Origin: Escherichia coli | GTDB lineage: Bacteria > Pseudomonadota > Gammaproteobacteria > Enterobacterales > Enterobacteriaceae | Direction: 5' to 3' (one strand) | NCBI RefSeq assembly: GCF_048403405.1 | Contig: NZ_CP183129.1 | Length of the DNA: 64,000 nt | Part shown: positions 1-12,673 of the stretch, one piece after another | Position numbering within the stretch: position 1 is the stretch's first letter | Layout: each line of letters begins with the position of its first letter | Position numbers and translations under genes: made by a program | The notes under the pieces: model-generated | The model's database searches: none | What the model saw: the letters and a program-made list of their open reading frames with translations, nothing else | Told to the model about the DNA's origin: nothing

Positions 1-1556
1 CCTGCGCCCGCGTCGCCATTAACCTTTCCTCGCCGCCGAAGCAAATCTCGGCGCTGACCACTCTGAGCCACCAGCAGGAGGCGGAAATTCGCCAGCTTGA
101 GCGCGAGCTTCGCATCGGGCTGCGTACCAACACCTCACGGATGACCGAGGTGCTGGTGCAGTACGATGAAACGCTGACGGCGCTGGATGAACTGGAAGCG
201 GCCTGGCATCAGCAGCAGGCGCTGGTCCGGGAGATTATCGCGCTGCGCCAGCAGTTGCTGGGCGTGGCAGAAGACGATGCGGCGTCGTTGCCGGACGCAG
301 ATGCCGCGGAGGATACGCCGCCAGAGTCAGAGTCAGAGTCAGAGTCAGAGTCAGAGTCAGAGTCAGAGTCAGAACAGGATAATACCGGTGCCGTACCGGC
401 TGATGAGGCCGACAGAGAACAGCCGGAAGAGACCGCTGAAACAGTTTCCCCGGTACAGCGGCTGGCCCAGCTCACTGCCGAACTGGACGCCCTGCATAAC
501 GACCGGTTGCTGGTCTCCCCGCACGTCGATAAAAAACAGATTGCGGCGGTGATTGCCGAATGGACCGGCGTGCCGCTCAACCGCCTGTCGCAGAATGAAA
601 TGTCGGTCATCACCGACCTGCCGAAATTGCTGGGCGACACCATCAAAGGCCAAGACCTGGCGATTGCCAGCCTGCATAAGCATCTACTGACCGCACGCGC
701 CGACCTGCGTCTTCCGGGACGCCCGCTCGGTGCGTTCCTGCTGGCTGGCCCCAGCGGTGTGGGTAAAACCGAAACCGTCCTGCAACTGGCAGAGCTGCTC
801 TACGGCGGTCGCCAGTACCTGACCACCATCAATATGTCCGAATTCCAGGAGAAACACACCGTCTCGCGGCTGATTGGTTCGCCTCCGGGCTACGTTGGCT
901 ACGGTGAAGGCGGCGTACTGACCGAAGCGATTCGCCAGAAACCCTACTCGGTAGTACTGCTCGATGAAGTGGAAAAAGCGCACCCGGATGTGCTCAACCT
1001 GTTCTACCAGTCGTTCGATAAGGGCGAAATGGCAGACGGTGAAGGCCGCCTGATTGACTGCAAAAATATCGTCTTCTTCCTGACGTCCAACCTCGGCTAC
1101 CAGGTAATAGTCGAGCACGCCGATGACCCGGAAACCATGCAGGAAGAACTGTATCCGGTGCTGGCCGACTTCTTCAAACCTGCCCTGCTGGCGCGTATGG
1201 AAGTGGTGCCGTATCTGCCGCTGTCGAAAGAGACGCTCGCCACCATTATCGCCGGAAAACTGGCCCGTCTGGATAACGTGCTGCGCAGTCGCTTTGGTGC
1301 AGAAGTGGTCATTGAACCGGAAGTGACGGACGAAATCATGAGCCGCGTCACCCGCGCGGAAAACGGCGCGAGGATGCTGGAATCGGTCATCGATGGCGAC
1401 ATGCTACCGCCGCTCTCGCTGCTGCTGTTGCAGAAAATGGCGGCTAACACGGCGATTGCCCGGATTCGGTTGTCGGCGGTGGACGACGCATTTACGGCAG
1501 ACGTGGAAGATGCTCAGAACGACGAGTCCGTCACAAAGGATGAAACGGTTTTATGA
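1..1556 (+). CDS. clpV: T6SS AAA+ ATPase ClpV/TssH, C-terminal ~518 codons (5' end lies outside the window)
   Basis: Reading frame is open from position 3 to the TGA at 1554-1556. Translation carries the second AAA+ module (Walker A LLAGPSGVGKTE, Walker B VVLLDEVEKAHPDV) and a Clp-type C-terminal domain. Confidence 0.85.
   Translation, partial: CARVAINLSSPPKQISALTTLSHQQEAEIRQLERELRIGLRTNTSRMTEVLVQYDETLTALDELEAAWHQQQALVREIIALRQQLLGVAEDDAASLPDADAAEDTPPESESESESESESESESEQDNTGAVPADEADREQPEETAETVSPVQRLAQLTAELDALHNDRLLVSPHVDKKQIAAVIAEWTGVPLNRLSQNEMSVITDLPKLLGDTIKGQDLAIASLHKHLLTARADLRLPGRPLGAFLLAGPSGVGKTETVLQLAELLYGGRQYLTTINMSEFQEKHTVSRLIGSPPGYVGYGEGGVLTEAIRQKPYSVVLLDEVEKAHPDVLNLFYQSFDKGEMADGEGRLIDCKNIVFFLTSNLGYQVIVEHADDPETMQEELYPVLADFFKPALLARMEVVPYLPLSKETLATIIAGKLARLDNVLRSRFGAEVVIEPEVTDEIMSRVTRAENGARMLESVIDGDMLPPLSLLLLQKMAANTAIARIRLSAVDDAFTADVEDAQNDESVTKDETVL
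324..371 (+). repeat. Perfect hexanucleotide tandem repeat (GAGTCA)x8 inside clpV, encoding (Glu-Ser)8
   Basis: Eight identical GAGTCA units read directly from the sequence, in frame with clpV and followed by GAA CAG. Confidence 0.95.
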
Positions 1557-2296
1557 GCAGGTTGCGCGTTTTCCGGCAGACAGGATGGTTTATCGCGGGC
1601 CTGATGACGGGCTTACCCGCCACTGCCGCGCCCGCAGAAACATCGTCAATGGCCGGTGTGGCGGTCGCCGTCGCCACCACGACCCCGCCGGATGCGACAG
1701 CCACGTCACAGGCCATGCAGTCCTGTCGGCGGGAGTCCGCGGCGCTGGAGCGGCTTGACTGCTATGACCGCCTGCTGGCACCGCTGTCCCCGTCAGGGTT
1801 TGACGGGGCGCTGGTCAAAGCCGGTTTTGTGGGCGAGGCCTGGACCCGCGCCACAGAGCAGGAAAAACGTCGCGAGGGCAACACCACAGAACTGCTGGTG
1901 ACGCAGGTGCCGGGGGAGCGCCCGACGGTGGTGATAACCACCCCGGCTATCGGCCATGTTCCGCCGCGCCCGGTGCTGATGTTCAGTTGCGTGGACAATA
2001 TCACCCGGATGCAGGTGGCGCTGATGCACCCTCTGGATGTCCATGATATCGCCGTCACTCTGAATGCCGACAGCCGGGCATTGCGTAGCCACTGGTTTGT
2101 GCGCGAGAACGGCACCCTGCTGGAGTCCAGCCGGGGGCTGTCCGGGATTGATGAAATTAAGCAACTGTTCGGCGCAAAAACGCTGACAGTGGATACCGGC
2201 GCAGATAACGCCGCAGGAAAGCTGACCTTTAACATTGACGGGCTGGCAAGGGCGATTGCCCCCCTGCGCGTTGCCTGCCACTGGGCGGGAGAATAA
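1553..2296 (+). CDS. T6SS-associated VasI-family protein (secreted/periplasmic, N-terminal signal peptide)
   Basis: ATG at 1553 overlaps the clpV stop (ATGA). N-terminal hydrophobic signal-like segment, then an Ala/Thr/Pro-rich tract. Position between clpV and tssA matches vasI in vas-type clusters. Family assignment is from recalled architecture, not a search. Confidence 0.55.
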   Translation: MSRLRVFRQTGWFIAGLMTGLPATAAPAETSSMAGVAVAVATTTPPDATATSQAMQSCRRESAALERLDCYDRLLAPLSPSGFDGALVKAGFVGEAWTRATEQEKRREGNTTELLVTQVPGERPTVVITTPAIGHVPPRPVLMFSCVDNITRMQVALMHPLDVHDIAVTLNADSRALRSHWFVRENGTLLESSRGLSGIDEIKQLFGAKTLTVDTGADNAAGKLTFNIDGLARAIAPLRVACHWAGE

Positions 2297-2300
2297 AAAT

Positions 2301-3713
2301 ATGGCAATGGACTTACGCGATCCGAATGTCTGGATAACGCACCTGCTGGAAAACCTGCCGGAAGAAAAACTGGCATCGGCGCTGAAAGATGACAACCCGG
2401 ACTGGGAGTATATCGACGGCGAAATCGTCAAACTGGGATCTCTGGCCCACAGTCAACTGGATATCCCGGAACTCCAGCGCCGGGGGCTGGTCATTCTGGC
2501 TTCGGAGAGTAAGGACTTTCGTCTGCTGGCGCATCTGCTGAGAACCCTGCAACACGCCGGTGATCCTCATCTCGCATTGCGCCTGCTGGCGCTGTATGTG
2601 GAGCATTACTGGTCGGTGGCTGCGCCGCAGAATATGGCACATAAAAAACGCTTTGCCAGCCAGGTCATTAAACGCTTCGAAACAGGTATTGAAGGCTTTT
2701 CACAGAACGCCGCCACAGCGCAGCGCGACGCGCTGTCAGGGGAACTGGCGAAACTGGCGCAGTGCTGGCAGTCACATAACGCCCCGGAACTGGCACTGGC
2801 TACCGATGATCTTTTTGCCCTGTACCAGCGTGCGTTTAATCGTGCGGCACCGGCTCCTGCCCCCACTCCGGCGGCCTCCGATAGTTCACGACAGACCACC
2901 GCCACGTCTGAAAGCGGCGTGACGCAACCCAGTGCTCCGGCTCCCCAAATCGCCATCGACAGTCACGACGACAAAGCCTGGCGCGACACGCTGTTAAAAG
3001 TGGCGGCTATTTTATGTGAACGCCAGCCGGACTCGCCGCAGGGCTATCGCCTGCGCCGCCATGCCCTGTGGCAATCCATCACCAGTACACCCCAGGCGGA
3101 AAGCGATGGACGTACCCCATTGGCTGCGGTCTCTGCCGATATGGTGGCGGATTACCAGTCCCGGCTTGCCAGCGCGGATATGGCGCTGTGGCAGCAGGTT
3201 GAGAAAAGCGTATTGCTGGCTCCTTACTGGCTGGACGGTCACTGTCTTTCTGCACAGACGGCACTGCGTCTGGGTTACAAACAGGTGGCAGACACCATCC
3301 GCGATGAGGTCATCCGCTTCCTTGAGCGTCTGCCCCAGCTTACCGGGCTGCTGTTTAATGACCGCACACCGTTTCTCAGTGAGCAGACGAAACAATGGCT
3401 GGCAGCTTCGCCCGACGGCAAAGTTGCACCGGTTGCGCAAATCGGTGAGGAATCGCAGGCAGCCAGAGCCTGTTTTGCTGGGCAGGGTCTGGAGGCGGCG
3501 CTGCGATATCTGGACATGCTACCCGAAGGCGATCCCCGCAATCAGTTTCACCGCCAGTACCTTGCCGCACAGTTGACGGAGGAGGCGGGGCTGATACAGC
3601 TTGCGCAGCAACAGTACCGGATGTTGTTGATGATAGGGAGTCAGATGATGGTGTCTGACTGGGAGCCATCATTACTTACGCAGCTTGAACAAAAATTCAC
3701 GGCAGAACAATAA
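2301..3713 (+). CDS. tssA: T6SS protein TssA (VasJ-like, ImpA_N-type N-terminal domain)
   Basis: ATG at 2301 just after the vasI-like stop (the tracked ORF starts further upstream at 2235). About 470 aa, lying between vasI and tssM as vasJ does. Confidence 0.7.
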   Translation: MAMDLRDPNVWITHLLENLPEEKLASALKDDNPDWEYIDGEIVKLGSLAHSQLDIPELQRRGLVILASESKDFRLLAHLLRTLQHAGDPHLALRLLALYVEHYWSVAAPQNMAHKKRFASQVIKRFETGIEGFSQNAATAQRDALSGELAKLAQCWQSHNAPELALATDDLFALYQRAFNRAAPAPAPTPAASDSSRQTTATSESGVTQPSAPAPQIAIDSHDDKAWRDTLLKVAAILCERQPDSPQGYRLRRHALWQSITSTPQAESDGRTPLAAVSADMVADYQSRLASADMALWQQVEKSVLLAPYWLDGHCLSAQTALRLGYKQVADTIRDEVIRFLERLPQLTGLLFNDRTPFLSEQTKQWLAASPDGKVAPVAQIGEESQAARACFAGQGLEAALRYLDMLPEGDPRNQFHRQYLAAQLTEEAGLIQLAQQQYRMLLMIGSQMMVSDWEPSLLTQLEQKFTAEQ

Positions 3714-3731
3714 AAGAGAACAGGAGTTTTT

Positions 3732-6700
3732 GTGTTCAGATTACCAACACCCCGACTACTCAGCGGACTCAAATCAGCCCTACGCCCGGCGATGCCCCGG
3801 TTTAAAGTCTCCGCTTTCTGGCTGCTGATACTGGCGTGGATTTTTCTGCTGGTATGGATCTGGTGGAAAGGCCCGACGTGGACGCTGTATGAAGAACAGT
3901 GGCTCAAACCACTGGCGAACCGCTGGCTGGCAACGGCGGCATGGGGGATTATCGCCCTAGTGTGGCTTACCGTCCGGATGATGAAGCGCCTGCAACAGCT
4001 TGAAAAAATGCAAAAGCAGCAGCGCGAGGAGGCCATTGATCCGCTCAGTGTGGAGCTGAACGCCCAGCAGCGTTACCTTGACCGCTGGCTGCTGCGCCTG
4101 CAACGCCATCTCGACAACCGCCGTTTCCTGTGGCAGTTGCCGTGGTATATGGTCATCGGCCCGGCGGGCAGTGGCAAAACGACACTGCTGCGCGAGGGTT
4201 TTCCGTCCGACATTATTTATGCCCCGGAGGGCGCACGCGGCGCAGAACAACGCCTGTACCTCACGCCCCATGTCGGTAAACAGGCGGTGATCTTTGATAT
4301 CGACGGCACACTCTGCGCTCCCGCTGATGCGGATATCCTGCATCGCCGTCTGTGGGAACATGCCCTCGGCTGGCTGAAAGAAAAGCGCGCGCGCCAGCCG
4401 CTGAACGGGATTATTCTGACACTCGATTTACCCGATCTGCTTACCGCAGACAAACGCCGCCGCGAACATCTGTTACAGACGCTGCGCAGCCGCTTGCAGG
4501 ATATACGCCAGCATCTTCACTGCCAGTTACCGGTTTACGTGGTACTCACCCGGCTTGATTTATTGCAGGGTTTTGCCGCCCTGTTCCAGTCACTGAACAG
4601 ACAGGATCGCGATGCAATTCTAGGGGTCACGTTCACCCGCCGCGCCCATGAAAATGATGACTGGCGAACAGAGTTGAATGCTTTCTGGCAGACATGGGTG
4701 GATCGAATGAACCTAGCGTTGCCGGATCTGATGGTCGCTCAGACTCACACCCGCGCGTCTTTATTTAGTTTTTCCCGCCAGATGCAGGGAAGCCGTGAAC
4801 CACTGGTGTCACTGCTTGAGGGTCTGCTTGACGGCGAAAATATGAACGTGATGCTGCGTGGCGTCTATCTCACCTCTTCGCTTCAGCGCGGACAGATGGA
4901 TGATATTTTCACCCAGTCTGCCGCCCGCCAATACCGGCTGGGCAATAACCCACTGGCGTCCTGGCCTCTGGTGGACACCGCACCCTATTTCACCCGTAGC
5001 CTGTTCCCGCAGGCATTACTCGCAGAGCCTAATCTGGCAACAGAAAGCCGCACCTGGCTGATGCGTTCCCGTCGCCGCCTGACGGTTTTCTCTACCACAG
5101 GAGGCGTGGCGGCACTGCTGCTCATCACCGGCTGGCATCACTATTACAACGGTAACTATCAGTCCGGCATCACCGTGCTTAAGCAGGCAAAAGCCTTTAT
5201 GGATGTACCGCCTCCGCTGGGGGAAGATGATTACGGCAACCTGCAACTGCCGCTGCTGAACCCGGTACGCGATGCCACGCTGGCCTATGGCGACTGGGGC
5301 GACCGCAGCCGTCTGGCCGATATGGGACTGTACCAGGGACGGCGTATCGGGCCTTATGTGGAACAAACCTATCTGCAACTGCTGGAGCAGCGTTACCTGC
5401 CTTCGCTGTTTAACGGGCTGGTCAAAGCGATGAACGCCGCGCCGCCGGAGAGTGAGGAAAAACTCGCCGTGCTGCGTGTGATGCGAATGCTGGAGGACAA
5501 AAGCGGACGCAATAATGAGGTGGTGAAGCAGTATATGGCAAAACGCTGGAGCGAAAAATTCCACGGCCAGCGCGATATCCAGGCACAACTGATGTCCCAT
5601 CTTGACTACGCGCTGGCTCATACTGACTGGCATGCAGAGCGTCAGGCGGGCGACGGTGATGCCATCAGCCGCTGGACGCCATATGACAAGCCTGTTGCGA
5701 CAGCACAGAAAGAACTGAGCAAACTGCCTGTCTACCAGCGAGTTTACCAGAGCCTGAAAACGCGGGCGCTGGGCGTTCTTCCTGCCGACCTCAATCTGCG
5801 TGACCAGGTAGGGCCAACTTTTGACCAGGTATTTACATCTGCCGATGATAACAAACTGGTTGTTCCACAGTTTCTTACCCGTTACGGCCTGCAAAGCTAT
5901 TTTGTAAAACAGCGCGATGAACTGGTTGAACTGACGGCGATGGATTCCTGGGTACTCAACCTCACCCGCAGCGTGAAATACAGTGACGCCGACCGCGCGG
6001 AAATCCAGCGCCAGTTGACCGAGCAGTATATCAGCGACTACACCGCCACCTGGCGGGCCGGGATGGACAATCTGAATATCCGCAATTTTGAGTCCATCGG
6101 ACAACTGACCGGGGCGCTGGAGCAGGTTATCAGCGGCGACCAGCCTTTGCAGCGGGCGCTGACCGTGCTGCGTGACAACACACAGCCAGGCGTCTTTTCT
6201 GAAAAACTCTCTGCCAAAGAGCGGGATGAGACCCTGGCAGAGCCGGATTACCAGTTACTCACCCGCCTCGGGCATGAATTCGCCCCGGAAAACAGTACCC
6301 TGACAGTACAGAAAGACAAAGAAAGCACGATGCAGGCCGTATACCAGCAGCTCACCGAGTTACACCGCTACCTGCTGGCAATCCAGAACGCGCCTGTACC
6401 AGGGAAATCGGCGCTGAAAGCCGTGCAGTTAAGGCTTGATCAGAACAGCAGCGATCCAATATTCGCCACCCGCCAGATGGCAAAAACACTGCCTGCTCCG
6501 CTCAACCGCTGGGTAGGCAGGCTGGCTGACCAGGCCTGGCATGTGGTGATGGTGGAAGCCGTTCACTATATGGAAGTGGACTGGCGCGACAGCGTGGTGA
6601 AACCGTTTAACGAGCAACTGGCAAATAACTATCCGTTTAATCCACATTCTGCACAGGATGCCTCACTGGATGCCTTCGAACGATTCTTTAAACCAGATGG

Positions 6701-7256
6701 CATACTGGATACCTTCTACCAGCAGAACCTAAAGCTGTTTATCGACAATGACCTGAGTCTGGAGGATGGCGATAACAACGTCATTATTCGCGAAGATATT
6801 ATTGCGCAACTGGAAACCGCGCAGAAAATCCGTGACATATTCTTCAGCAAACAGAACGGTCTGGGAACATCCTTTGCCGTGGAAACGGTATCGCTTTCCG
6901 GCAACAAACGCCGCAGCGTACTGAACCTTGACGGTCAGTTAGTCGATTACAGCCAGGGCCGTAACTATACCGCCCATCTGGTCTGGCCTAACAATATGCG
7001 CGAAGGCAACGAAAGCAAACTGACGCTGGTTGGTGCCCGCGGCGGCGCACCGCGCAGTATCAGCTTCAGCGGGCCGTGGGCTCAGTTCCGCCTGTTCGGG
7101 GCCGGACAGCTGACCGGAGTACAGGATGGCAACTTTACCGTGCGCTTTAGTGTGGACGGTGGCGCAATGACCTACCGCGTGCATACCGACACGGAAGATA
7201 ACCCGTTCAGCGGTGGGTTATTCAGCCAGTTTGGCCTGTCAGACACACTGTACTGA
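3732..7256 (+). CDS. tssM: T6SS membrane-complex protein TssM (IcmF/VasK family)
   Basis: GTG start at 3732 preceded by AGGAG at 3722-3726. 1174 aa with N-terminal transmembrane segments and a Walker A motif (GPAGSGKTT). Confidence 0.9.
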   Translation: MFRLPTPRLLSGLKSALRPAMPRFKVSAFWLLILAWIFLLVWIWWKGPTWTLYEEQWLKPLANRWLATAAWGIIALVWLTVRMMKRLQQLEKMQKQQREEAIDPLSVELNAQQRYLDRWLLRLQRHLDNRRFLWQLPWYMVIGPAGSGKTTLLREGFPSDIIYAPEGARGAEQRLYLTPHVGKQAVIFDIDGTLCAPADADILHRRLWEHALGWLKEKRARQPLNGIILTLDLPDLLTADKRRREHLLQTLRSRLQDIRQHLHCQLPVYVVLTRLDLLQGFAALFQSLNRQDRDAILGVTFTRRAHENDDWRTELNAFWQTWVDRMNLALPDLMVAQTHTRASLFSFSRQMQGSREPLVSLLEGLLDGENMNVMLRGVYLTSSLQRGQMDDIFTQSAARQYRLGNNPLASWPLVDTAPYFTRSLFPQALLAEPNLATESRTWLMRSRRRLTVFSTTGGVAALLLITGWHHYYNGNYQSGITVLKQAKAFMDVPPPLGEDDYGNLQLPLLNPVRDATLAYGDWGDRSRLADMGLYQGRRIGPYVEQTYLQLLEQRYLPSLFNGLVKAMNAAPPESEEKLAVLRVMRMLEDKSGRNNEVVKQYMAKRWSEKFHGQRDIQAQLMSHLDYALAHTDWHAERQAGDGDAISRWTPYDKPVATAQKELSKLPVYQRVYQSLKTRALGVLPADLNLRDQVGPTFDQVFTSADDNKLVVPQFLTRYGLQSYFVKQRDELVELTAMDSWVLNLTRSVKYSDADRAEIQRQLTEQYISDYTATWRAGMDNLNIRNFESIGQLTGALEQVISGDQPLQRALTVLRDNTQPGVFSEKLSAKERDETLAEPDYQLLTRLGHEFAPENSTLTVQKDKESTMQAVYQQLTELHRYLLAIQNAPVPGKSALKAVQLRLDQNSSDPIFATRQMAKTLPAPLNRWVGRLADQAWHVVMVEAVHYMEVDWRDSVVKPFNEQLANNYPFNPHSAQDASLDAFERFFKPDGILDTFYQQNLKLFIDNDLSLEDGDNNVIIREDIIAQLETAQKIRDIFFSKQNGLGTSFAVETVSLSGNKRRSVLNLDGQLVDYSQGRNYTAHLVWPNNMREGNESKLTLVGARGGAPRSISFSGPWAQFRLFGAGQLTGVQDGNFTVRFSVDGGAMTYRVHTDTEDNPFSGGLFSQFGLSDTLY

Positions 7257-7266
7257 GGAGGCAGGG

Positions 7267-8619
7267 ATGAATAGTAACGGACTGACACAAACTATCGTTA
7301 CCGGCAGTGACCCGCGCGGGCTGCCGGAATTCAGCGCCATCCGCGAGGAAATAAACAAAGCCAGCCATCCGTCACAGCCTGAGCTGAACTGGAAACTGGT
7401 GGAGTCGCTGGCGCTGGCGATTTTTAAAGCCAACGGTGTGGATTTACACACCGCCACCTACTATACGCTTGCCCGGACACGGACACAGGGACTGGCGGGA
7501 TTCTGCGAAGGTGCGGAACTGCTGGCGGCAATGGTAAGCCACGACTGGGATAAATTCTGGCCGCAGGGCGGTCCGGCGCGTACTGAAATGCTGGACTGGT
7601 TTAACTCCCGAACCGGCAATATTCTGCGTCAGCAAATCTCCTTTGCGGAACCCGATCTGCCACTGATCTACCGCACAGAGCGGGCATTGCAGCTTATCTG
7701 CGACAAGCTTCAGCAGGTGGAGCTGAAGCGCGTTCCGCGCGTGGAGAATCTGCTCTATTTTATGCAGAACACGCGTAAGCGGCTTGAACCCCAGCCGAAG
7801 AGTAACGTTGAAAACGCCGTACAGACCACGGTTAGAACACTGATTTATGCCCCGGAAACAACGGCTTCCTCCACGCCAGAAGCGGTAGTGCCTCCCCTGC
7901 CCGACCTGCCTGAGATGAAAGTAGAAGTGCGCAGTCTGTCAGAGAATCCCCCACAGGCCAGTGTGATGAAGCAAGGCAGTACGGTAAGAGGGTTTATCAC
8001 GGGGATCGCCTGTTCAGTGGCTGTCGCCTCAGCATTGTGGTGGTGGCAGGTCTATCCGGTGCAACAGCAACTGTTACAGGTTAACGACACCGCGCAGGGC
8101 GCAGCAACGGTGTGGATGGCCTCACCTGAACTAGAAAACTATGAGCGCAGGCTACAACAGCTTCTTGGCGTCTCCCCGGTACAACCGCTGGAAACCGGGA
8201 TGCAGATGATGCGTGTTGCCGACAGTCGCTGGCCGGAAAGCCTGCAGCAGCAGCAGGCCTCGACACATTGGAATGAAGCACTCAAAACCCGCGCACAGAG
8301 TAGCCCGCAGTTGCGTGGCTGGTTGCAGACCCGTCAGGACTTACATGCTTTTGCAGATCTCGTGATGCGGCGCGAGAAAGAGGGACTAACCCTTTCCTAT
8401 ATCAAAAATGTCATCTGGCAGGCGGAGCGGGGACTGGGGCAGGAAACACCCGTTGAGTCTCTGTTGACGCAGTACCAGGATGCCCGTGCGCAGAAGCAGA
8501 ATATAGATGCGCTGGAAAAACAAATTAATGAGCGACTCGAAGGCGTGTTAATCCGCTGGCTGCTGCTGAAGAATAACGTCATGCCAGAGGCGGCAACCGG
8601 GACCACGGCCGAAAAATAA
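7267..8619 (+). CDS. VasL-like T6SS accessory protein (ImpA_N-related N-terminus, one central transmembrane helix)
   Basis: ATG at 7267 after GAGGAGG, 10 bp after the tssM stop. Predicted TM segment ITGIACSVAVASALWWW. Position after tssM corresponds to vasL. Confidence 0.6.
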   Translation: MNSNGLTQTIVTGSDPRGLPEFSAIREEINKASHPSQPELNWKLVESLALAIFKANGVDLHTATYYTLARTRTQGLAGFCEGAELLAAMVSHDWDKFWPQGGPARTEMLDWFNSRTGNILRQQISFAEPDLPLIYRTERALQLICDKLQQVELKRVPRVENLLYFMQNTRKRLEPQPKSNVENAVQTTVRTLIYAPETTASSTPEAVVPPLPDLPEMKVEVRSLSENPPQASVMKQGSTVRGFITGIACSVAVASALWWWQVYPVQQQLLQVNDTAQGAATVWMASPELENYERRLQQLLGVSPVQPLETGMQMMRVADSRWPESLQQQQASTHWNEALKTRAQSSPQLRGWLQTRQDLHAFADLVMRREKEGLTLSYIKNVIWQAERGLGQETPVESLLTQYQDARAQKQNIDALEKQINERLEGVLIRWLLLKNNVMPEAATGTTAEK

Positions 8620-8642
8620 TTATTTAATTAAAGGAGATTATC

Positions 8643-9125
8643 ATGGCAAATATGAGTTATTTATCTTTGAGTGGAGAGACACAAGGGCTGATTTCAGCAG
8701 GTTGCTCAACGCTTGATTCTGTCGGAAACAAAGCACAGCCAGAACATAAAGATCAGATCATGGTTTATGCGTTAATGCATTCCATCTCAAGAAGTCAAAA
8801 TGTCAATCATCATGAATTAATTATCACCAAACCGGTTGATAAATCCTCACCATTGCTGGCAAAAGCACTTAGTGACAATGAAAAAATGGTAACATGTGAA
8901 TTTATACTCTACCGAACCAGTAAAGCGGGTATTTACCAGCCTTATTATAAAATAAACCTGTCAAAAGCCCGAATATCAAGTATTGATTTTGTCACACCGC
9001 ATGCTGTCCTGGAAAAAGAACTGGAGCCACAGGAGAGAATTGCCTTTATTTATGAAGATATTTCCTGGGAGCATACGTTAGCCGGTACGAATGCAATGAG
9101 TAAATGGCAGGATCGTGTACAGTAA
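8643..9125 (+). CDS. hcp: Hcp-family T6SS tube protein (divergent, encoded in AT-rich DNA)
   Basis: 160 aa, AAGGAG RBS at 8631-8636. Length and motif pattern (SSPLL-KA, Y-I-L-A-I, IAF-YE-ISW) resemble Hcp. Confidence 0.75.
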   Translation: MANMSYLSLSGETQGLISAGCSTLDSVGNKAQPEHKDQIMVYALMHSISRSQNVNHHELIITKPVDKSSPLLAKALSDNEKMVTCEFILYRTSKAGIYQPYYKINLSKARISSIDFVTPHAVLEKELEPQERIAFIYEDISWEHTLAGTNAMSKWQDRVQ

Positions 9126-9168
9126 TTTACTGTAATAACATAATAAATTACTATTGCGGAGAGATATA

Positions 9169-10083
9169 ATGGCTGGTTTAAGGAATAATAACAACACACA
9201 GAATGCACAGTGGGCTGATTATGTGGGTGACATTCTTCGGGGGGCTCAACCGATAAACCAGCTAGTACCTCAGCACCCTTATCTTAACGACGTCCCACTC
9301 ATTGATGAATTAAGGCGTCAGAACACTCATCATGTTATTCTCTTGACACTTGATGTTGCAAAAAAAATACTCAGCTCAATAACATCATTTGATTACATTC
9401 ATTTTATCACTACACATCCTTCAGGTATAAAAGATACACTCGCTTGGTTAGTTAACGCGGGTAAATTAATGACTGAGTTTGATGGAAATGGGAAAATTAT
9501 ATTTAACTTTAATACCTTAAAGTATACAAAAGCAAGTTACTTTGAAATACTTGGAGAGAAATATATAAAAATTACAACATCCAGCCCCTGGCTTTTAGAA
9601 AAGCTCGGTAAATATATTTTCTCTTCACGAGCGCCTCAAGTTCTGGAACTCGCTATTGGCTGGCGAGGAGCTTTATCTGAATCAATAAAAGGAGTTAAGT
9701 TCTGTATCTGGTTTTCAGTAGCCTGGAGAACCATAGAATTTATTATGAGTTCAGAGCGAGATCTGGTTAATTTTCTTGGTGATTTTTCAATGGATGTGGC
9801 CAAAGCAGTGATTGCAGGCGGTGTTGCAACTGCTATTGGAAGCCTGGCTTCTTTTGCCTGTCTTAGTTTTGGCCTTCCAGTAATTCTTGTAGGAGGAGCA
9901 ATTTTACTTACAGGGATAGTGTGTACAGTTGTTTTAAATGAAATCGATGCTCAATACCATTTATCAGAAAAATTAAAAGATGCAATTAGAGATGGACTAA
10001 AACGGCAACAGGAACTTGATAAATGGAAAAGGGAAAACATGACTCCATTTATGTATGTTCTTAACACTTCCCCCGTGATATGA
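9169..10083 (+). CDS. Hypothetical protein; candidate Hcp-linked T6SS effector with C-terminal glycine-zipper hydrophobic helices
   Basis: ATG at 9169 with GGAG 7 nt upstream (tracked ORF begins at a TTG at 9154). AT-rich codon usage matching hcp. C-terminal segment VAKAVIAGGVATAIGSLASFACLSFGLPVILVGGAILLTGIVCTVVL. Function is inferred from context only. Confidence 0.55.
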   Translation: MAGLRNNNNTQNAQWADYVGDILRGAQPINQLVPQHPYLNDVPLIDELRRQNTHHVILLTLDVAKKILSSITSFDYIHFITTHPSGIKDTLAWLVNAGKLMTEFDGNGKIIFNFNTLKYTKASYFEILGEKYIKITTSSPWLLEKLGKYIFSSRAPQVLELAIGWRGALSESIKGVKFCIWFSVAWRTIEFIMSSERDLVNFLGDFSMDVAKAVIAGGVATAIGSLASFACLSFGLPVILVGGAILLTGIVCTVVLNEIDAQYHLSEKLKDAIRDGLKRQQELDKWKRENMTPFMYVLNTSPVI

Positions 10084-10247
10084 GGATTAACTATGCGTTT
10101 ACATGTTAAATTGAAAGAGTTTTTTTCGATGTTTTTTATAGCCATATTATTTTTCCCTGCATTCAATGCTTCTTTATTTTTTACCGGAATTAGGTGATGC
10201 TGCCAACTTACTGATTTAGTGTATGATGGTGTTTTTGAGGTGCTCCA

Positions 10248-10523
10248 GTGGCTTCTGTTTCTATCAGCTGTCCCTCCTGTTCAGCTACTGACGGGGTGGT
10301 GCGTAACGGCAAAAGCACCGCCGGACATCAGCGCTATCTCTGCTCTCACTGCCGTAAAACATGGCAACTGCAGTTCACTTACACCGCTTCTCAACCCGGT
10401 ACGCACCAGAAAATCATTGATATGGCCATGAATGGCGTTGGATGCCGGGCAACCGCCCGCATTATGGGCGTTGGCCTCAACACGATTTTCCGCCATTTAA
10501 AAAACTCAGGCCGCAGTCGGTAA
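10248..10523 (+). CDS. insA: IS1 InsA (transposition inhibitor / N-terminal part of transposase)
   Basis: 91-aa ORF beginning [43 protein letters not shown], inside IS1. Confidence 0.9.
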
Positions 10524-10945
10524 CCTCGCGCATACAGCCGGGCAGTGACGTCATCGTCTGCGCGGAAATGGACGAACAGTGGGGATACGTCGGGGCTAAA
10601 TCGCGCCAGCGCTGGCTGTTTTACGCGTATGACAGGCTCCGGAAGACGGTTGTTGCGCACGTATTCGGTGAACGCACTCTGGCCACACTGGAGCGTCTTC
10701 TAAGCCTGCTGTCGGCCTTTGAGGTCGTGGTATGGATGACGGATGGCTGGCCGCTGTATGAATCCCGCCTGAAGGGAAAGCTGCACGTAATCAGCAAGCG
10801 TTACACTCAGCGAATTGAGCGGCATAACCTGAATCTGAGACAACATCTGGCAAGGCTGGGACGGAAGTCACTGTCGTTCTCAAAATCGGTGGAGCTGCAT
10901 GACAAGGTCATCGGGCATTATCTGAACATAAAACACTATCAGTAA
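10442..10945 (+). CDS. insB: IS1 InsB reading frame (expressed as InsAB' transposase by -1 frameshifting)
   Basis: -1 frame ORF overlapping the end of insA, translation typical of IS1 InsB ([21 protein letters not shown]...). Confidence 0.88.
10496..10505 (+). promoter_or_regulatory. IS1 programmed -1 ribosomal frameshift site TTTAAAAAAC
   Basis: A6C motif lies in the insA/insB overlap; the IS1 frameshift mechanism is established knowledge. Confidence 0.8.
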
Positions 10946-11484
10946 GTTGGAGTCATTACCCGGAATTAAACCTCTATATTCAATAATAAAAGGCTCCACG
11001 GAAATATTTTATGATTGGAGAATGTTGATTCTATGCTTCGGTTTCATATCGTTTTCCTTGTTAAATATTCATGTAATTTTACTAACAATAATAAAATCAT
11101 TCTTAATAAAAAAAACAAAGGTAATCAATTTCGCCACAGACATAACAATACAGCTAACTCTTATATTTTTACTAATAGCTATCGTAATAGCACCTTTAAT
11201 AGCTCCTTTTGTCACAGGATATGTCAATGCTAATTGTCACCCCTGCGGTAATAACACGGGGATTTTCCCAGGAGCAATCTATATTAAAAATGGCATAAAA
11301 TGTAATAATGAACATATTTCTCGCAAGGAAGATTAAGCAGTTAAATAATTAAATATTCTAAAACAAACAGTTTTTAACGCCGGATTCCATGTCCTTTCTT
11401 GCACTGTCTTTGTCAGGAACAATTTCTTATGCAAAGAATTTTGTATTATTGCCGCCAGAAATTCCTGGCGGCAGATATAATTTA

Positions 11485-12270
11485 TTATTGATAGCGGTTA
11501 ACCAAATCTTTTACCATCGCTTTATAGGTCTTTTGCTTAAGTTGTATGATTTGCTGCTCTGTCATATCAGTCGTACTGGCTTCATTCTTGCCGGGAAATG
11601 GTGGAAGCACTTTATATTCATAATTCACCGGCGACCAGGCAGCCCACTCACCTGTAGCTACATCCACCAGCGTGAATCGCACCAGATAGCGCAGTGAGAT
11701 TGTGTTAGTCAGTTTTTCATTTTTATAATCGGACCATACTGTTGATTTCAGTGCAGTGTCATATTTTCCTGTCTGCAACGTATCCTGGTAAACAATAATC
11801 GCTTTCTGATGGCCTTTTGCCGCCACAAAACGTAATGCCTGCATCCAGTTCATATTTTCAGCACTGGCAACATCCTCGTTCTCATTTTTATCTTTGTTTT
11901 TGTTACAAGTCAGAGGCTTTTGTCTGTCCGGGATACCAGAGAATGTGGAAACAGTATAATATTTTCGCATCTCCTCCTGCATAATGGTTTCCGGTGCGCG
12001 ACTGCCAGACTGGACAAGTATTACGGGAGAATTGAGAGGCACACGAAACTCATCTCCTTCAAGCGCAGCCTGAATATCCTCCTCGGATACAGCCAGAGTG
12101 GTTTCATTACCGAATAAATCTTTGTCTGTCAGTTGCGGGGGAATGTTTTTATTAATATTACTTTGTGTAACTTGAACTTTTTTCTTTTTTTCATCAATAG
12201 AAGATTGAGAGGCACATCCTGCAAGCAGCGAGAATAATACACATATGCAACAAACCTTTTTTGAATTCAT
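11485..12270 (-). CDS. yafT: Lipoprotein YafT
   Basis: 261 aa with lipobox LLAGC after a signal peptide; lies next to aspV as yafT does in K-12. Confidence 0.8.
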
Positions 12271-12536
12271 AATCGGACACTCCCTCGCCTGTCATAATGA
12301 TTAGAATATTTAGCACTGATAACGGACTCTAATTATATACCCCACTTAAATAATAACAAACAAAATCAACATGAAATATACATTCATTTAATCAATATAA
12401 AATTATTCACTAAAAATATATTTAAGTTGAATGGTTCGATATCATTATTGAATTTTAATAAATGAGACAACAAGCGAGAGTTACGCACTTACGCCAGAGT
12501 AAAATCATTGAACAGAGAAATATCGTGATTTAAATG

Positions 12537-12596: not shown

Positions 12597-12673
12597 TGGC
12601 GGAACGGACGGGACTCGAACCCGCGACCCCCTGCGTGACAGGCAGGTATTCTAACCGACTGAACTACCGCTCC
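12597..12673 (-). tRNA. aspV: tRNA-Asp (GTC)
   Basis: Reverse complement reads GGAGCGGTAGTTCAGTCGGTTAGAATACCTGCCTGTCACGCAGGGGGTCGCGGGTTCGAGTCCCGTCCGTTCCGCCA. Confidence 0.97.

What the first reader, a model, noticed from the sequence alone, without database searches (positions are those of the whole stretch)
1..8619. Vibrio vas-like T6SS core block lacking the sigma-54 activator between clpV and vasI
Gene order clpV, vasI-like, tssA, tssM, vasL-like mirrors V. cholerae vasG-(vasH)-vasI-vasJ-vasK-vasL. Here the clpV stop and the vasI-like start overlap (ATGA at 1553-1556), leaving no room for a vasH-type enhancer-binding protein. Regulation of this cluster is therefore likely different from the Vibrio paradigm, and clpV/vasI appear translationally coupled.
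Basis: partly seen in the sequence, partly recalled or inferred. Interest (0 to 1): 0.45.

Follow-up and report, generated by a model that had tools for sequence, protein, structure and literature searches.

The report
E. coli T6SS-2 cluster lacking vasH
This is the distal half of the well-known type VI secretion cluster (T6SS-2) that about half of E. coli strains carry next to the aspV tRNA gene; it does lack the Vibrio-type sigma-54 activator gene, but that is the normal, already-mapped state of this cluster and not a new feature.

Summary
Window 1-9125 encodes tssH/clpV (3' half), vasI, tssA, tssM, a VasL/TagA-like protein and hcp. The clpV stop and the vasI start share ATGA at 1553-1556.

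The DNA is 100% identical to E. coli MS 69-1. At least 80% of the block is present in 2489 of 5426 complete E. coli genomes. It lies in the aspV tRNA island, which the literature calls E. coli T6SS-2 (EHEC Z0243-Z0275, EAEC 042 Ec042-0210-0226).

The complete cluster in MS 69-1 contains no enhancer-binding protein in any frame, and no sigma-54 promoter motif in its intergenic regions. Published work shows that H-NS silences this cluster in EHEC.

Comparing 83 related loci adds context:
- Distant clusters keep a full sigma-54 activator between clpV and vasI.
- Hafnia and Enterobacter soli keep a low-scoring copy.
- Yersinia, Serratia, Photorhabdus, Proteus and Morganella keep a 265-aa remnant with the VasH N-domain and HTH but no AAA+ domain.
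- The E. coli-like lineage branches from within that remnant group and has lost the gene cleanly.

Interest is low for the window. The remnant regulator elsewhere is a modest lead.

The parts
1..1556 (+). tssH/clpV, 3' part (C-terminal 517 codons; the 5' part lies before the window start)
   Evidence: TIGR03345 match to profile positions 407-851. 100% identical to tssH WP_000614411.1 of MS 69-1.
1553..1556 (+). ATGA overlap of the clpV stop (TGA 1554-1556) and the vasI start (ATG 1553-1555)
   Evidence: Read directly. The same -4 overlap occurs in 24 of 33 E. coli-like loci. Class B loci have ATGA at both ends of their short vasH.
1553..2296 (+). vasI (tagO), accessory T6SS protein with an N-terminal hydrophobic leader
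   Evidence: TIGR03360, 256 bits against a cut-off of 124. Pfam VasI PF11319, E 1.6e-52.
2301..3713 (+). tssA (vasJ type)
   Evidence: TIGR03362, 498 bits against a cut-off of 230, full-length match.
3732..7256 (+). tssM (icmF/vasK). RefSeq starts it at 3822 (a CTG). A GTG at 3732 has AGGAG 5 nt upstream.
   Evidence: TIGR03348, 947 bits against a cut-off of 388. Sequence read. RefSeq coordinates.
7267..8619 (+). VasL/TagA-like protein (ImpA_N + VasL domains). The longest ORF starts at GTG 7213.
   Evidence: Pfam ImpA_N 12-113 (E 3e-19) and VasL PF12486 292-434 (E 6.6e-22). Annotated 'VasL domain-containing protein' in MS 69-1.
GC drops to about 39% here.
   Evidence: TIGR03344, 204 bits against a cut-off of 59. 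Composition.
12597..12673 (-). tRNA-Asp (aspV), the chromosomal anchor of the island
   Evidence: ARAGORN and Rfam. dnaQ, rnhA, yafS and gloB follow, as in MS 69-1.

Best explanation
Window 1-9125 is the distal part of the single long operon of the E. coli T6SS-2 cluster in the aspV island. The operon runs tssB-tssC-tssE-F-G-tagH-tssJ-K-L-tssH-vasI-tssA-tssM-vasL/tagA-hcp.

It encodes the sheath-recycling ATPase, an exported accessory protein, the cap/priming protein TssA, the membrane-complex subunit TssM, a TagA-type sheath-stopper homologue and a tube protein.

The genes are packed with overlaps or gaps of at most about 25 nt. They are probably co-transcribed from the AT-rich divergent hcp1|tssB region about 12 kb upstream of the window, and partly translationally coupled.

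The cluster carries no regulator of its own. The vasH enhancer-binding protein gene, which sits between clpV and vasI in the ancestral arrangement that Vibrio retains, has been lost. The loss was most likely stepwise: first the AAA+ domain went, leaving the 265-aa remnant that Yersinia, Proteus and Photorhabdus still keep. Then the remnant was removed between two ATGA junctions.

Expression is therefore sigma-54-independent and under host-chromosome control, with H-NS silencing demonstrated in EHEC.

Status of each step:
- Shown here: gene identities, the junction, absence of vasH, distribution among loci, the tree.
- From the literature: H-NS repression, the T6SS-2 name, the V. cholerae gene order.
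- Inferred: co-transcription, translational coupling, the order of loss events, a sigma-70 promoter.
For: - Family assignments above curated cut-offs.
- 100% identity to MS 69-1 and presence in 2489 of 5426 E. coli genomes.
- Full cluster annotation without a regulator.
- No VasH-like sequence in six frames.
- Sigma-54 motif count of 25 against 32.9 expected, none intergenic. An EBP-bearing control locus, L082, has TGGCACAGTCCCTGCC 78 nt upstream of hcp.
- The control region is 31-34% GC.
- H-NS repression of the aspV cluster in EHEC (PMC5363993). T6SS-2 naming (PMC12981562, PMC10711316).
- 80 related loci fall into three junction classes. Three distant loci all have clpV-Sigma54_activat-vasI.
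- The short protein is homologous to the VasH N-domain (hhalign 99.1%, E 4.6e-19) and carries HTH_8.
- In the TssM tree the E. coli-like clade (bootstrap 100) is nested inside the short-vasH group: the joint clade has bootstrap 94 and the sister relation 96.
- ATGA sits at both ends of the short gene.
Against: - No transcript data for this strain, so the promoter and operon structure are inferred. Sigma-70 consensus hits in the control region are not above chance.
- The tree is a single-protein neighbour-joining tree. Some internal nodes within class B are weak (42-65).
- T6SS clusters move horizontally, so the direction and number of losses are a parsimony argument.
- The locus sample was restricted by one peptide pattern. 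It contains no Vibrio or Aeromonas, so class frequencies are not population estimates.
- A chromosomal EBP acting on a degenerate sigma-54 promoter cannot be formally excluded.
Confidence: 0.85

Rival explanations
1. The cluster is still sigma-54 controlled. One of E. coli's chromosomal enhancer-binding proteins acts in trans on a divergent sigma-54 promoter, so only the gene location has changed and not the regulatory logic.
For: The review table (PMC10482370) lists RpoN among factors affecting a Klebsiella pneumoniae T6SS. Sites with 2 mismatches to the consensus exist within coding regions of the cluster.
Against: Motif matches are below the chance expectation (25 against 32.9). None lies in the 700-bp hcp1|tssB intergenic region or upstream of hcp2. 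The only experimentally shown regulator in the literature read here is H-NS.
Confidence: 0.07
2. vasH was never present in this lineage. The clpV-vasI junction is ancestral, and Vibrio-type clusters gained the activator by insertion.
For: 48 of the 80 loci retrieved lack any gene between clpV and vasI.
Against: The three most distant VasI-bearing loci and the earliest-branching enterobacterial clade all carry a full-length EBP at exactly this position. The E. coli-like clade is nested among clusters that keep a homologous remnant. Independent insertion of homologous genes at the same junction is much less parsimonious.
Confidence: 0.05
3. The missing regulator is a sign that this copy is a decaying, non-functional T6SS.
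For: PMC12981562 describes degeneration of T6SS-2 in EHEC through repeat indels in tssM and clpV. PMC10711316 describes loss of the system in ST410 and ST131. An IS1 has inserted 1 kb downstream, at 10193-10960.
Against: All six ORFs in the window are intact with full-length family matches. The same vasH-less arrangement is conserved from E. coli to Rahnella and Buttiauxella. EHEC and aEPEC versions secrete Hcp. IS1 hits only ykfM.
Confidence: 0.05

Closest known systems
E. coli T6SS-2 (aspV-island cluster: EHEC EDL933 Z0243-Z0275; EAEC 042 Ec042-0210-0226; also UTI89, 536, APEC O1, RS218, LF82)
   Same: Same chromosomal site (aspV tRNA-Asp, dnaQ side), same gene order and same proteins. 100% identical to MS 69-1. 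At least 80% of the block is present in 2489 complete genomes.
   Different: Nothing of substance. This strain has 8.7 copies of the hexanucleotide repeat in clpV and an IS1 in ykfM downstream.
Vibrio cholerae vas large cluster VCA0107-VCA0123
   Same: Collinear gene order: tssB/C, E, F, G, FHA, J, K, L, clpV, vasI, tssA (VCA0119), tssM (vasK), VasL (VCA0121).
   Different: V. cholerae has vasH (VCA0117, a sigma-54 EBP) between clpV and VCA0118, and it drives the hcp operons. E. coli has none, no sigma-54 promoter motifs, and hcp/vgrG/rhs inside the cluster.
Clusters of Yersinia (including Y. pestis), Serratia, Photorhabdus/Xenorhabdus, Proteus, Providencia and Morganella with a 260-269-aa 'Fis family regulator' between clpV and vasI
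   Same: Nearest phylogenetic neighbours of the E. coli-like clusters (TssM 49-59% identical). Same order of flanking genes. ATGA-type coupling at the junctions.
   Different: They keep a VasH remnant (N-domain + HTH_8, no AAA+). E. coli has nothing at that position.
TagA (EAEC Sci-1) / VCA0121 TagA of V. cholerae
   Same: The product of 7267-8619 has the ImpA_N + VasL domain pair and sits directly after tssM, as VCA0121 does. TagA is listed as a post-translational T6SS factor in PMC10482370.
   Different: Function was not tested here. Sequence relation to EAEC TagA was not measured.

Membership tests
Proteobacterial T6SS core apparatus | TssH, TssA, TssM and Hcp/TssD homologues above curated family cut-offs | tested here: met
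   TssA 498 against 230, TssM 947 against 388, Hcp 204 against 59. TssH scores 540 bits on the C-terminal half only, because the window start cuts the gene; it is full-length tssH in the identical MS 69-1 locus.
Proteobacterial T6SS core apparatus | Remaining core genes (tssB, C, E, F, G, J, K, L, vgrG) in the same cluster | tested here: met
   All are annotated upstream in MS 69-1, which is 100% identical over the shared 10.2 kb. They lie outside the window.
E. coli T6SS-2 | Inserted at the aspV tRNA-Asp locus | tested here: met
   tRNA-Asp at 12597-12673 (-), followed by dnaQ, rnhA, yafS and gloB. The literature places T6SS-2 of EHEC and EAEC at aspV.
E. coli T6SS-2 | Characteristic content: FHA/tagH, vasI, two tssA-family genes, two hcp, vgrG-rhs | tested here: met
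   MS 69-1 annotation. Matches the description of the ST410 T6SS-2 locus in PMC10711316.
E. coli T6SS-2 | Near-identity to reference T6SS-2 loci of other E. coli | tested here: met
   In 2489 genomes one place covers at least 80% of window 1-10400. The 15 best-scoring records are 99.1-100% identical over 98% of it. The identity bands printed are counted per record and include many partial matches.
Vibrio-type vasH-regulated T6SS | Sigma-54 enhancer-binding protein gene between clpV and vasI | tested here: not met
   4-nt overlap at 1553-1556. No Sigma54_activat or VasH-like sequence in six frames of the window or the full cluster.
Vibrio-type vasH-regulated T6SS | Sigma-54 (-24/-12) promoter upstream of hcp or other operons | tested here: not met
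   None in intergenic regions at up to 2 mismatches, and the count is below chance. A positive control site was found upstream of hcp in EBP-bearing L082.
TagA/VasL family | N-terminal ImpA_N domain plus C-terminal VasL domain, encoded after tssM | tested here: met
   Pfam ImpA_N E 3e-19 and VasL E 6.6e-22.
TagA/VasL family | Membrane anchoring, and the sheath stop-and-hold activity | not testable with these tools
   Only a weak EccD-like transmembrane hint at residues 210-260 (E 0.14). The activity needs microscopy.

The most novel reading that the evidence does not exclude
The clpV-vasI junction across Gammaproteobacteria records the stepwise dismantling of a cluster-encoded sigma-54 activator:
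- a full EBP in distant clusters;
- a low-scoring EBP with an altered Walker B and no GAFTGA-like loop in Hafnia and Enterobacter soli;
- an AAA+-deleted 265-aa protein (VasH N-domain + Fis-type HTH) in Yersinia, Serratia, Photorhabdus, Proteus and Morganella;
- clean deletion in the E. coli-like lineage.

The 265-aa proteins are annotated only as 'Fis family transcriptional regulator'. They would be an uncharacterised class of sigma-54-independent T6SS regulators, either repressors or sigma-70 activators that occupy former enhancer sites. E. coli T6SS-2 would be the end point, where control passed wholly to H-NS and host factors.
Probability: 0.45. Interest if true: 0.4.

Novelty: already known. 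Interest (0 to 1): 0.15.

Why it matters
For the window itself it matters little. It confirms that a routine annotation (E. coli T6SS-2 at aspV) is right, and that this widespread system has no dedicated activator. That fits its reported silence in vitro and its de-repression in hns mutants.

The comparative by-product is more useful. It explains why E. coli differs from the Vibrio paradigm: gene loss rather than a different origin. It also points to a conserved, unstudied 265-aa VasH remnant in Yersinia pestis, Proteus mirabilis, Photorhabdus and Morganella. That remnant could be tested directly as a T6SS regulator.

Tried and rejected
- The 74-sequence VasI alignment A1 was too diverse to yield a search pattern. 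The 15-sequence A2 worked, but its single pattern (SCx[DE][NK]ITR[MLI]Q) retrieved only Enterobacterales, Pasteurellaceae and Gilliamella. No Vibrio or Aeromonas locus was obtained.
- The listing of cluster members on 10 distant VasI representatives named only one organism. I used the look-up of encoding contigs instead.
It detected just the two class C loci and was superseded by Pfam and NCBIfam results.
- BLASTP of the short proteins against full EBPs gave only weak collinear hits. Profile-profile comparison was needed.
- Sigma-70 promoter and terminator consensus scans were not above shuffled expectation and were not used as evidence.
- Long antisense ORFs inside tssM, tssA and clpV (for example 5016-6104 on the minus strand) were treated as by-products of high GC. 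They have no family support and no annotation in RefSeq.
- Rfam found no RNA family in 1-12500 other than tRNA-Asp.
- The Bernard et al. 2011 paper on sigma-54 and T6SS is not held. A literature search for ykfM with T6SS found nothing.
- I first took the loss of GAFTGA as specific to Hafnia and E. soli. The outgroup EBPs also vary (GAHSAA in L082, GAFEGA in L084, GAFTGA in L083). The 'degenerate' label therefore rests mainly on threefold lower family scores and the Walker B change.
Full report
**1. What is in the window**

ORF listing and direct reading show a tight same-strand gene series. NCBIfam assigns the genes as follows:
- 3-1553: the C-terminal half of TssH/ClpV (TIGR03345, profile positions 407-851; the gene is cut by the window start).
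- 1553-2296: VasI (256 bits, cut-off 124).
- 2301-3713: TssA of the VasJ type (498 against 230).
- 3732-7256: TssM (947 against 388).
- 7213-8619: a protein that matches only the N-terminal part of the TssA models.
- 8643-9125: Hcp (204 against 59).

Pfam shows the fifth protein has ImpA_N plus the VasL domain PF12486. This is the VasL/TagA architecture. Pfam also confirms VasI.

The sequence ggttttATGAgcagg at 1547-1561 puts the clpV TGA at 1554-1556 and the vasI ATG at 1553-1555.

**2. Where it comes from**

Megablast against 5426 complete E. coli genomes gives 100% identity over 1-10192 to strain MS 69-1. At least 80% coverage is found in 2489 genomes.

The window continues with a tRNA-Asp at 12597-12673, then dnaQ, rnhA, yafS and gloB, an rRNA operon, and the dnaE to glnD region. 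This is the aspV island. The window is collinear with MS 69-1 except for an IS1 inserted at 10193-10960.

The literature names the aspV-associated cluster E. coli T6SS-2:
- EHEC EDL933 Z0243-Z0275 (PMC5363993; PMC12981562).
- EAEC 042 Ec042-0210-0226, which is more than 95% identical in UMN026, 536, UTI89, APEC O1, S88, ED1a and 55989 (PMC2808357).
- The ST410 and ST131 loci (PMC10711316).

**3. The rest of the cluster, and the search for an activator**

In MS 69-1 the cluster reads as follows. On one strand, rhs, vgrG and hcp. On the other, tssB, a 74-aa ORF, tssC, tssE, tssF, tssG, tagH, tssJ, tssK, tssL, tssH, vasI, tssA, tssM, VasL, hcp, a hypothetical gene and ykfM. No regulator is annotated.

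I searched all six frames of this 48-kb locus and of the window. The queries were five full-length VasH-type EBPs, 30 truncated homologues, and HMMs built from both sets. Nothing was found: the best tblastn E was 0.007 on unrelated short stretches, and the best HMM E was 2.4.

**4. Regulation**

- The sigma-54 promoter consensus TGGCAC-N5-TTGCW at up to 2 mismatches occurs 25 times in the 48-kb locus, against 32.9 expected.
- None of these sites lies in the 700-bp hcp1|tssB intergenic region or before hcp2. The nearest one is inside hcp1.
- As a control, the EBP-bearing Alkalispirillum locus L082 has TGGCACAGTCCCTGCC 78 nt upstream of its hcp.
- The hcp1|tssB region is 31-34% GC against 50-60% for the flanking genes. 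This is typical of H-NS targets (inference).
- H-NS repression of this cluster was shown in EHEC (PMC5363993).
- In V. cholerae, VasH with RpoN activates the hcp-bearing auxiliary clusters (PMC10482370; PMC3166118).

The claim that regulation differs from the Vibrio paradigm is therefore supported.

Gene spacing within the window is 4-nt overlap, 4 nt, 18 nt (if tssM starts at GTG 3732), 10 nt and 23 nt. No terminator-like site exceeds chance. Co-transcription and some translational coupling are reasonable but inferred.

**5. Is the missing vasH unusual? Comparison with related loci**

A genome-collection scan anchored on VasI returned 80 loci. I mapped ClpV, VasI, TssA, TssM, VasL and Hcp on each by tblastn and measured the clpV-vasI junction. 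Three classes appear.

- *Class A, 48 loci: no gene between clpV and vasI.*
  - 33 are E. coli-like: Escherichia, Citrobacter, Lelliottia, Buttiauxella, Trabulsiella, Rahnella and others. 24 of them have the same ATGA overlap.
  - 15 belong to Pasteurellaceae, Budviciaceae, Gilliamella and Phytobacter massiliensis.
- *Class B, 30 loci: a 260-269-aa ORF fills the gap.* These are Yersinia (including Y. pestis), Serratia, Photorhabdus, Xenorhabdus, Proteus, Providencia, Morganella, Edaphovirga and a second Trabulsiella cluster.
- *Class C, 2 loci: a 479-506-aa ORF.* These are Enterobacter soli and Hafnia paralvei.

Three much more distant VasI homologues were fetched with their neighbours. All show clpV, a 522-523-aa protein with Sigma54_activat, then vasI, followed by tssM; tssA is called between vasI and tssM in two of the three (not in L083).

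**6. What the class B and class C proteins are**

- Pfam finds Sigma54_activat in all five long proteins. Hafnia scores only 58.8 bits, and the best of the five has E 2.8e-65.
- Against NCBIfam EBP models, the Hafnia and E. soli proteins score about 90-118 bits, where the outgroup proteins score about 300.
- Their sequences read LLLENID where the others have LFLDEI (Walker B). They read NVSGSA or NVAESA where the others have GAFTGA-like loops.
- The class B proteins have no AAA+ domain. 11 of 20 have HTH_8 at the C-terminus at E<=0.001, and 18 of 20 at E<=0.1.
- Their last 50-65 residues (about 35 in the weaker matches) align to the extreme C-terminus of AtoC, PgtA and PrdR.
- They are thus VasH with the sigma-54 interaction module removed. 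Public databases call them only 'Fis family transcriptional regulator' or 'helix-turn-helix domain-containing protein'. I found no paper discussing them.

**7. Direction of change**

I built a neighbour-joining tree of TssM with 78 sequences, 1128 columns and 100 bootstraps, rooted on the three distant loci.
- Hafnia plus E. soli are sister to all the rest (bootstrap 100).
- Next comes a vasH-less clade of Pasteurellaceae, Budviciaceae and Gilliamella (79).
- The remaining clade (94) contains all class B loci and the E. coli-like class A loci.
- The E. coli-like clade (100) is sister to the Edaphovirga, Enterobacillus and Trabulsiella-b subgroup of class B (96). It therefore arose from within clusters that carry the short gene.

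In class B both junctions (clpV/short-vasH and short-vasH/vasI) are ATGA overlaps. The E. coli-like loci have a single ATGA. Removing exactly one ORF would leave this pattern.

The most parsimonious history is: full EBP, then loss of the AAA+ module, then loss of the remnant in the E. coli-like lineage, with an independent loss in the Pasteurellaceae/Budviciaceae clade.

Caveats:
- The tree uses one protein and a distance method.
- Some nodes inside class B are weak (42-65).
- These clusters transfer horizontally.
- The sample contains no Vibrio or Aeromonas.

**8. Comparison with what is known, and verdict**

The block is a member of E. coli T6SS-2 by location, content and near-identity. It is collinear with the V. 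cholerae vas cluster (PMC3166118). It fails both defining features of a vasH-regulated system, the EBP gene and the sigma-54 promoters.

I found no explicit statement in the papers held that T6SS-2 lacks vasH. Even so, the absence is evident from every published map and annotation.

Novelty is 'already known' and interest is low (0.15). The only lead with some novelty lies outside the window: the AAA+-less VasH remnant in Yersinia, Proteus, Photorhabdus and Morganella clusters, and the reductive series that ends in E. coli.

Noticed in passing
window 322-373 (inside tssH/clpV): A perfect hexanucleotide repeat, (CAGAGT) x 8.7, encodes a Ser-Glu run in an acidic linker of ClpV. In other E. coli genomes the same 411-nt stretch spans 369 to 555 nt, always differing by multiples of 6 where the match covers the stretch end to end, so it is an in-frame VNTR. 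Four of the five sampled records with the longest arrays (471-555 nt span) are annotated 'AAA family ATPase' instead of TssH. PMC12981562 already mentions repeat indels in clpV of EHEC.
   Followed up: partly
window 10193-10960: A complete 768-bp IS1 with a 9-bp target duplication (CCGGAATTA at 10184-10192 and 10961-9) is inserted in ykfM. It is absent from the otherwise identical MS 69-1 locus.
   Followed up: yes
window 9169-10083 and 10093 onward (ykfM): The low-GC (37-40%) 304-aa ORF directly after hcp has no Pfam or NCBIfam family and a hydrophobic C-terminal half. The small membrane protein YkfM follows. The position after hcp suggests an effector/immunity pair. No literature links ykfM to T6SS.
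   Followed up: no
window 3732-3824: RefSeq starts tssM at a CTG (3822). An in-frame GTG at 3732 lies 5 nt after an AGGAG and only 18 nt after the tssA stop, which would add 30 residues. PMC12981562 reports that changes at the tssM 5' end alter its translation in EHEC.
   Followed up: partly
L033-L078 class B loci, e.g. L045 8133-8930 (Yersinia pestis), L058 8118-8906 (Proteus mirabilis): A 260-269-aa protein between clpV and vasI has a VasH N-terminal domain plus a Fis-type HTH and no sigma-54 AAA+ module. It is annotated only as a Fis family regulator and is apparently uncharacterised.
   Followed up: partly
L079 7502-8941 (Enterobacter soli), L080 7364-8884 (Hafnia paralvei): Full-length VasH homologues whose AAA+ domain scores three times lower than typical EBPs. 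Walker B reads ENID instead of DEI, and there is no GAFTGA-like loop. They may be inactive as sigma-54 activators.
   Followed up: partly
L002 (MAG 'Bacillota bacterium'), L003 (MAG 'Collinsella sp.'): Short contigs filed under Gram-positive MAGs carry T6SS-2 genes whose encoded proteins are 86-99% identical to E. coli. They are almost certainly mis-binned E. coli contigs.
   Followed up: no
L018/L034, L019/L035, L025/L033 (Trabulsiella); L012/L015 (Citrobacter youngae); L051/L070 (Budvicia): Several genomes carry two vasI-type clusters. In Trabulsiella one is class A (no vasH) and the other is class B (short vasH), so both states coexist in one cell.
   Followed up: no
window 11485-12270 (-): A 261-aa ORF with a lipoprotein-like N-terminus lies in AT-rich DNA between ykfM and aspV. 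It is annotated hypothetical in MS 69-1.
   Followed up: no
L001 23419-23643: A 74-aa hypothetical ORF is annotated between tssB and tssC in the E. coli T6SS-2 cluster.
   Followed up: no
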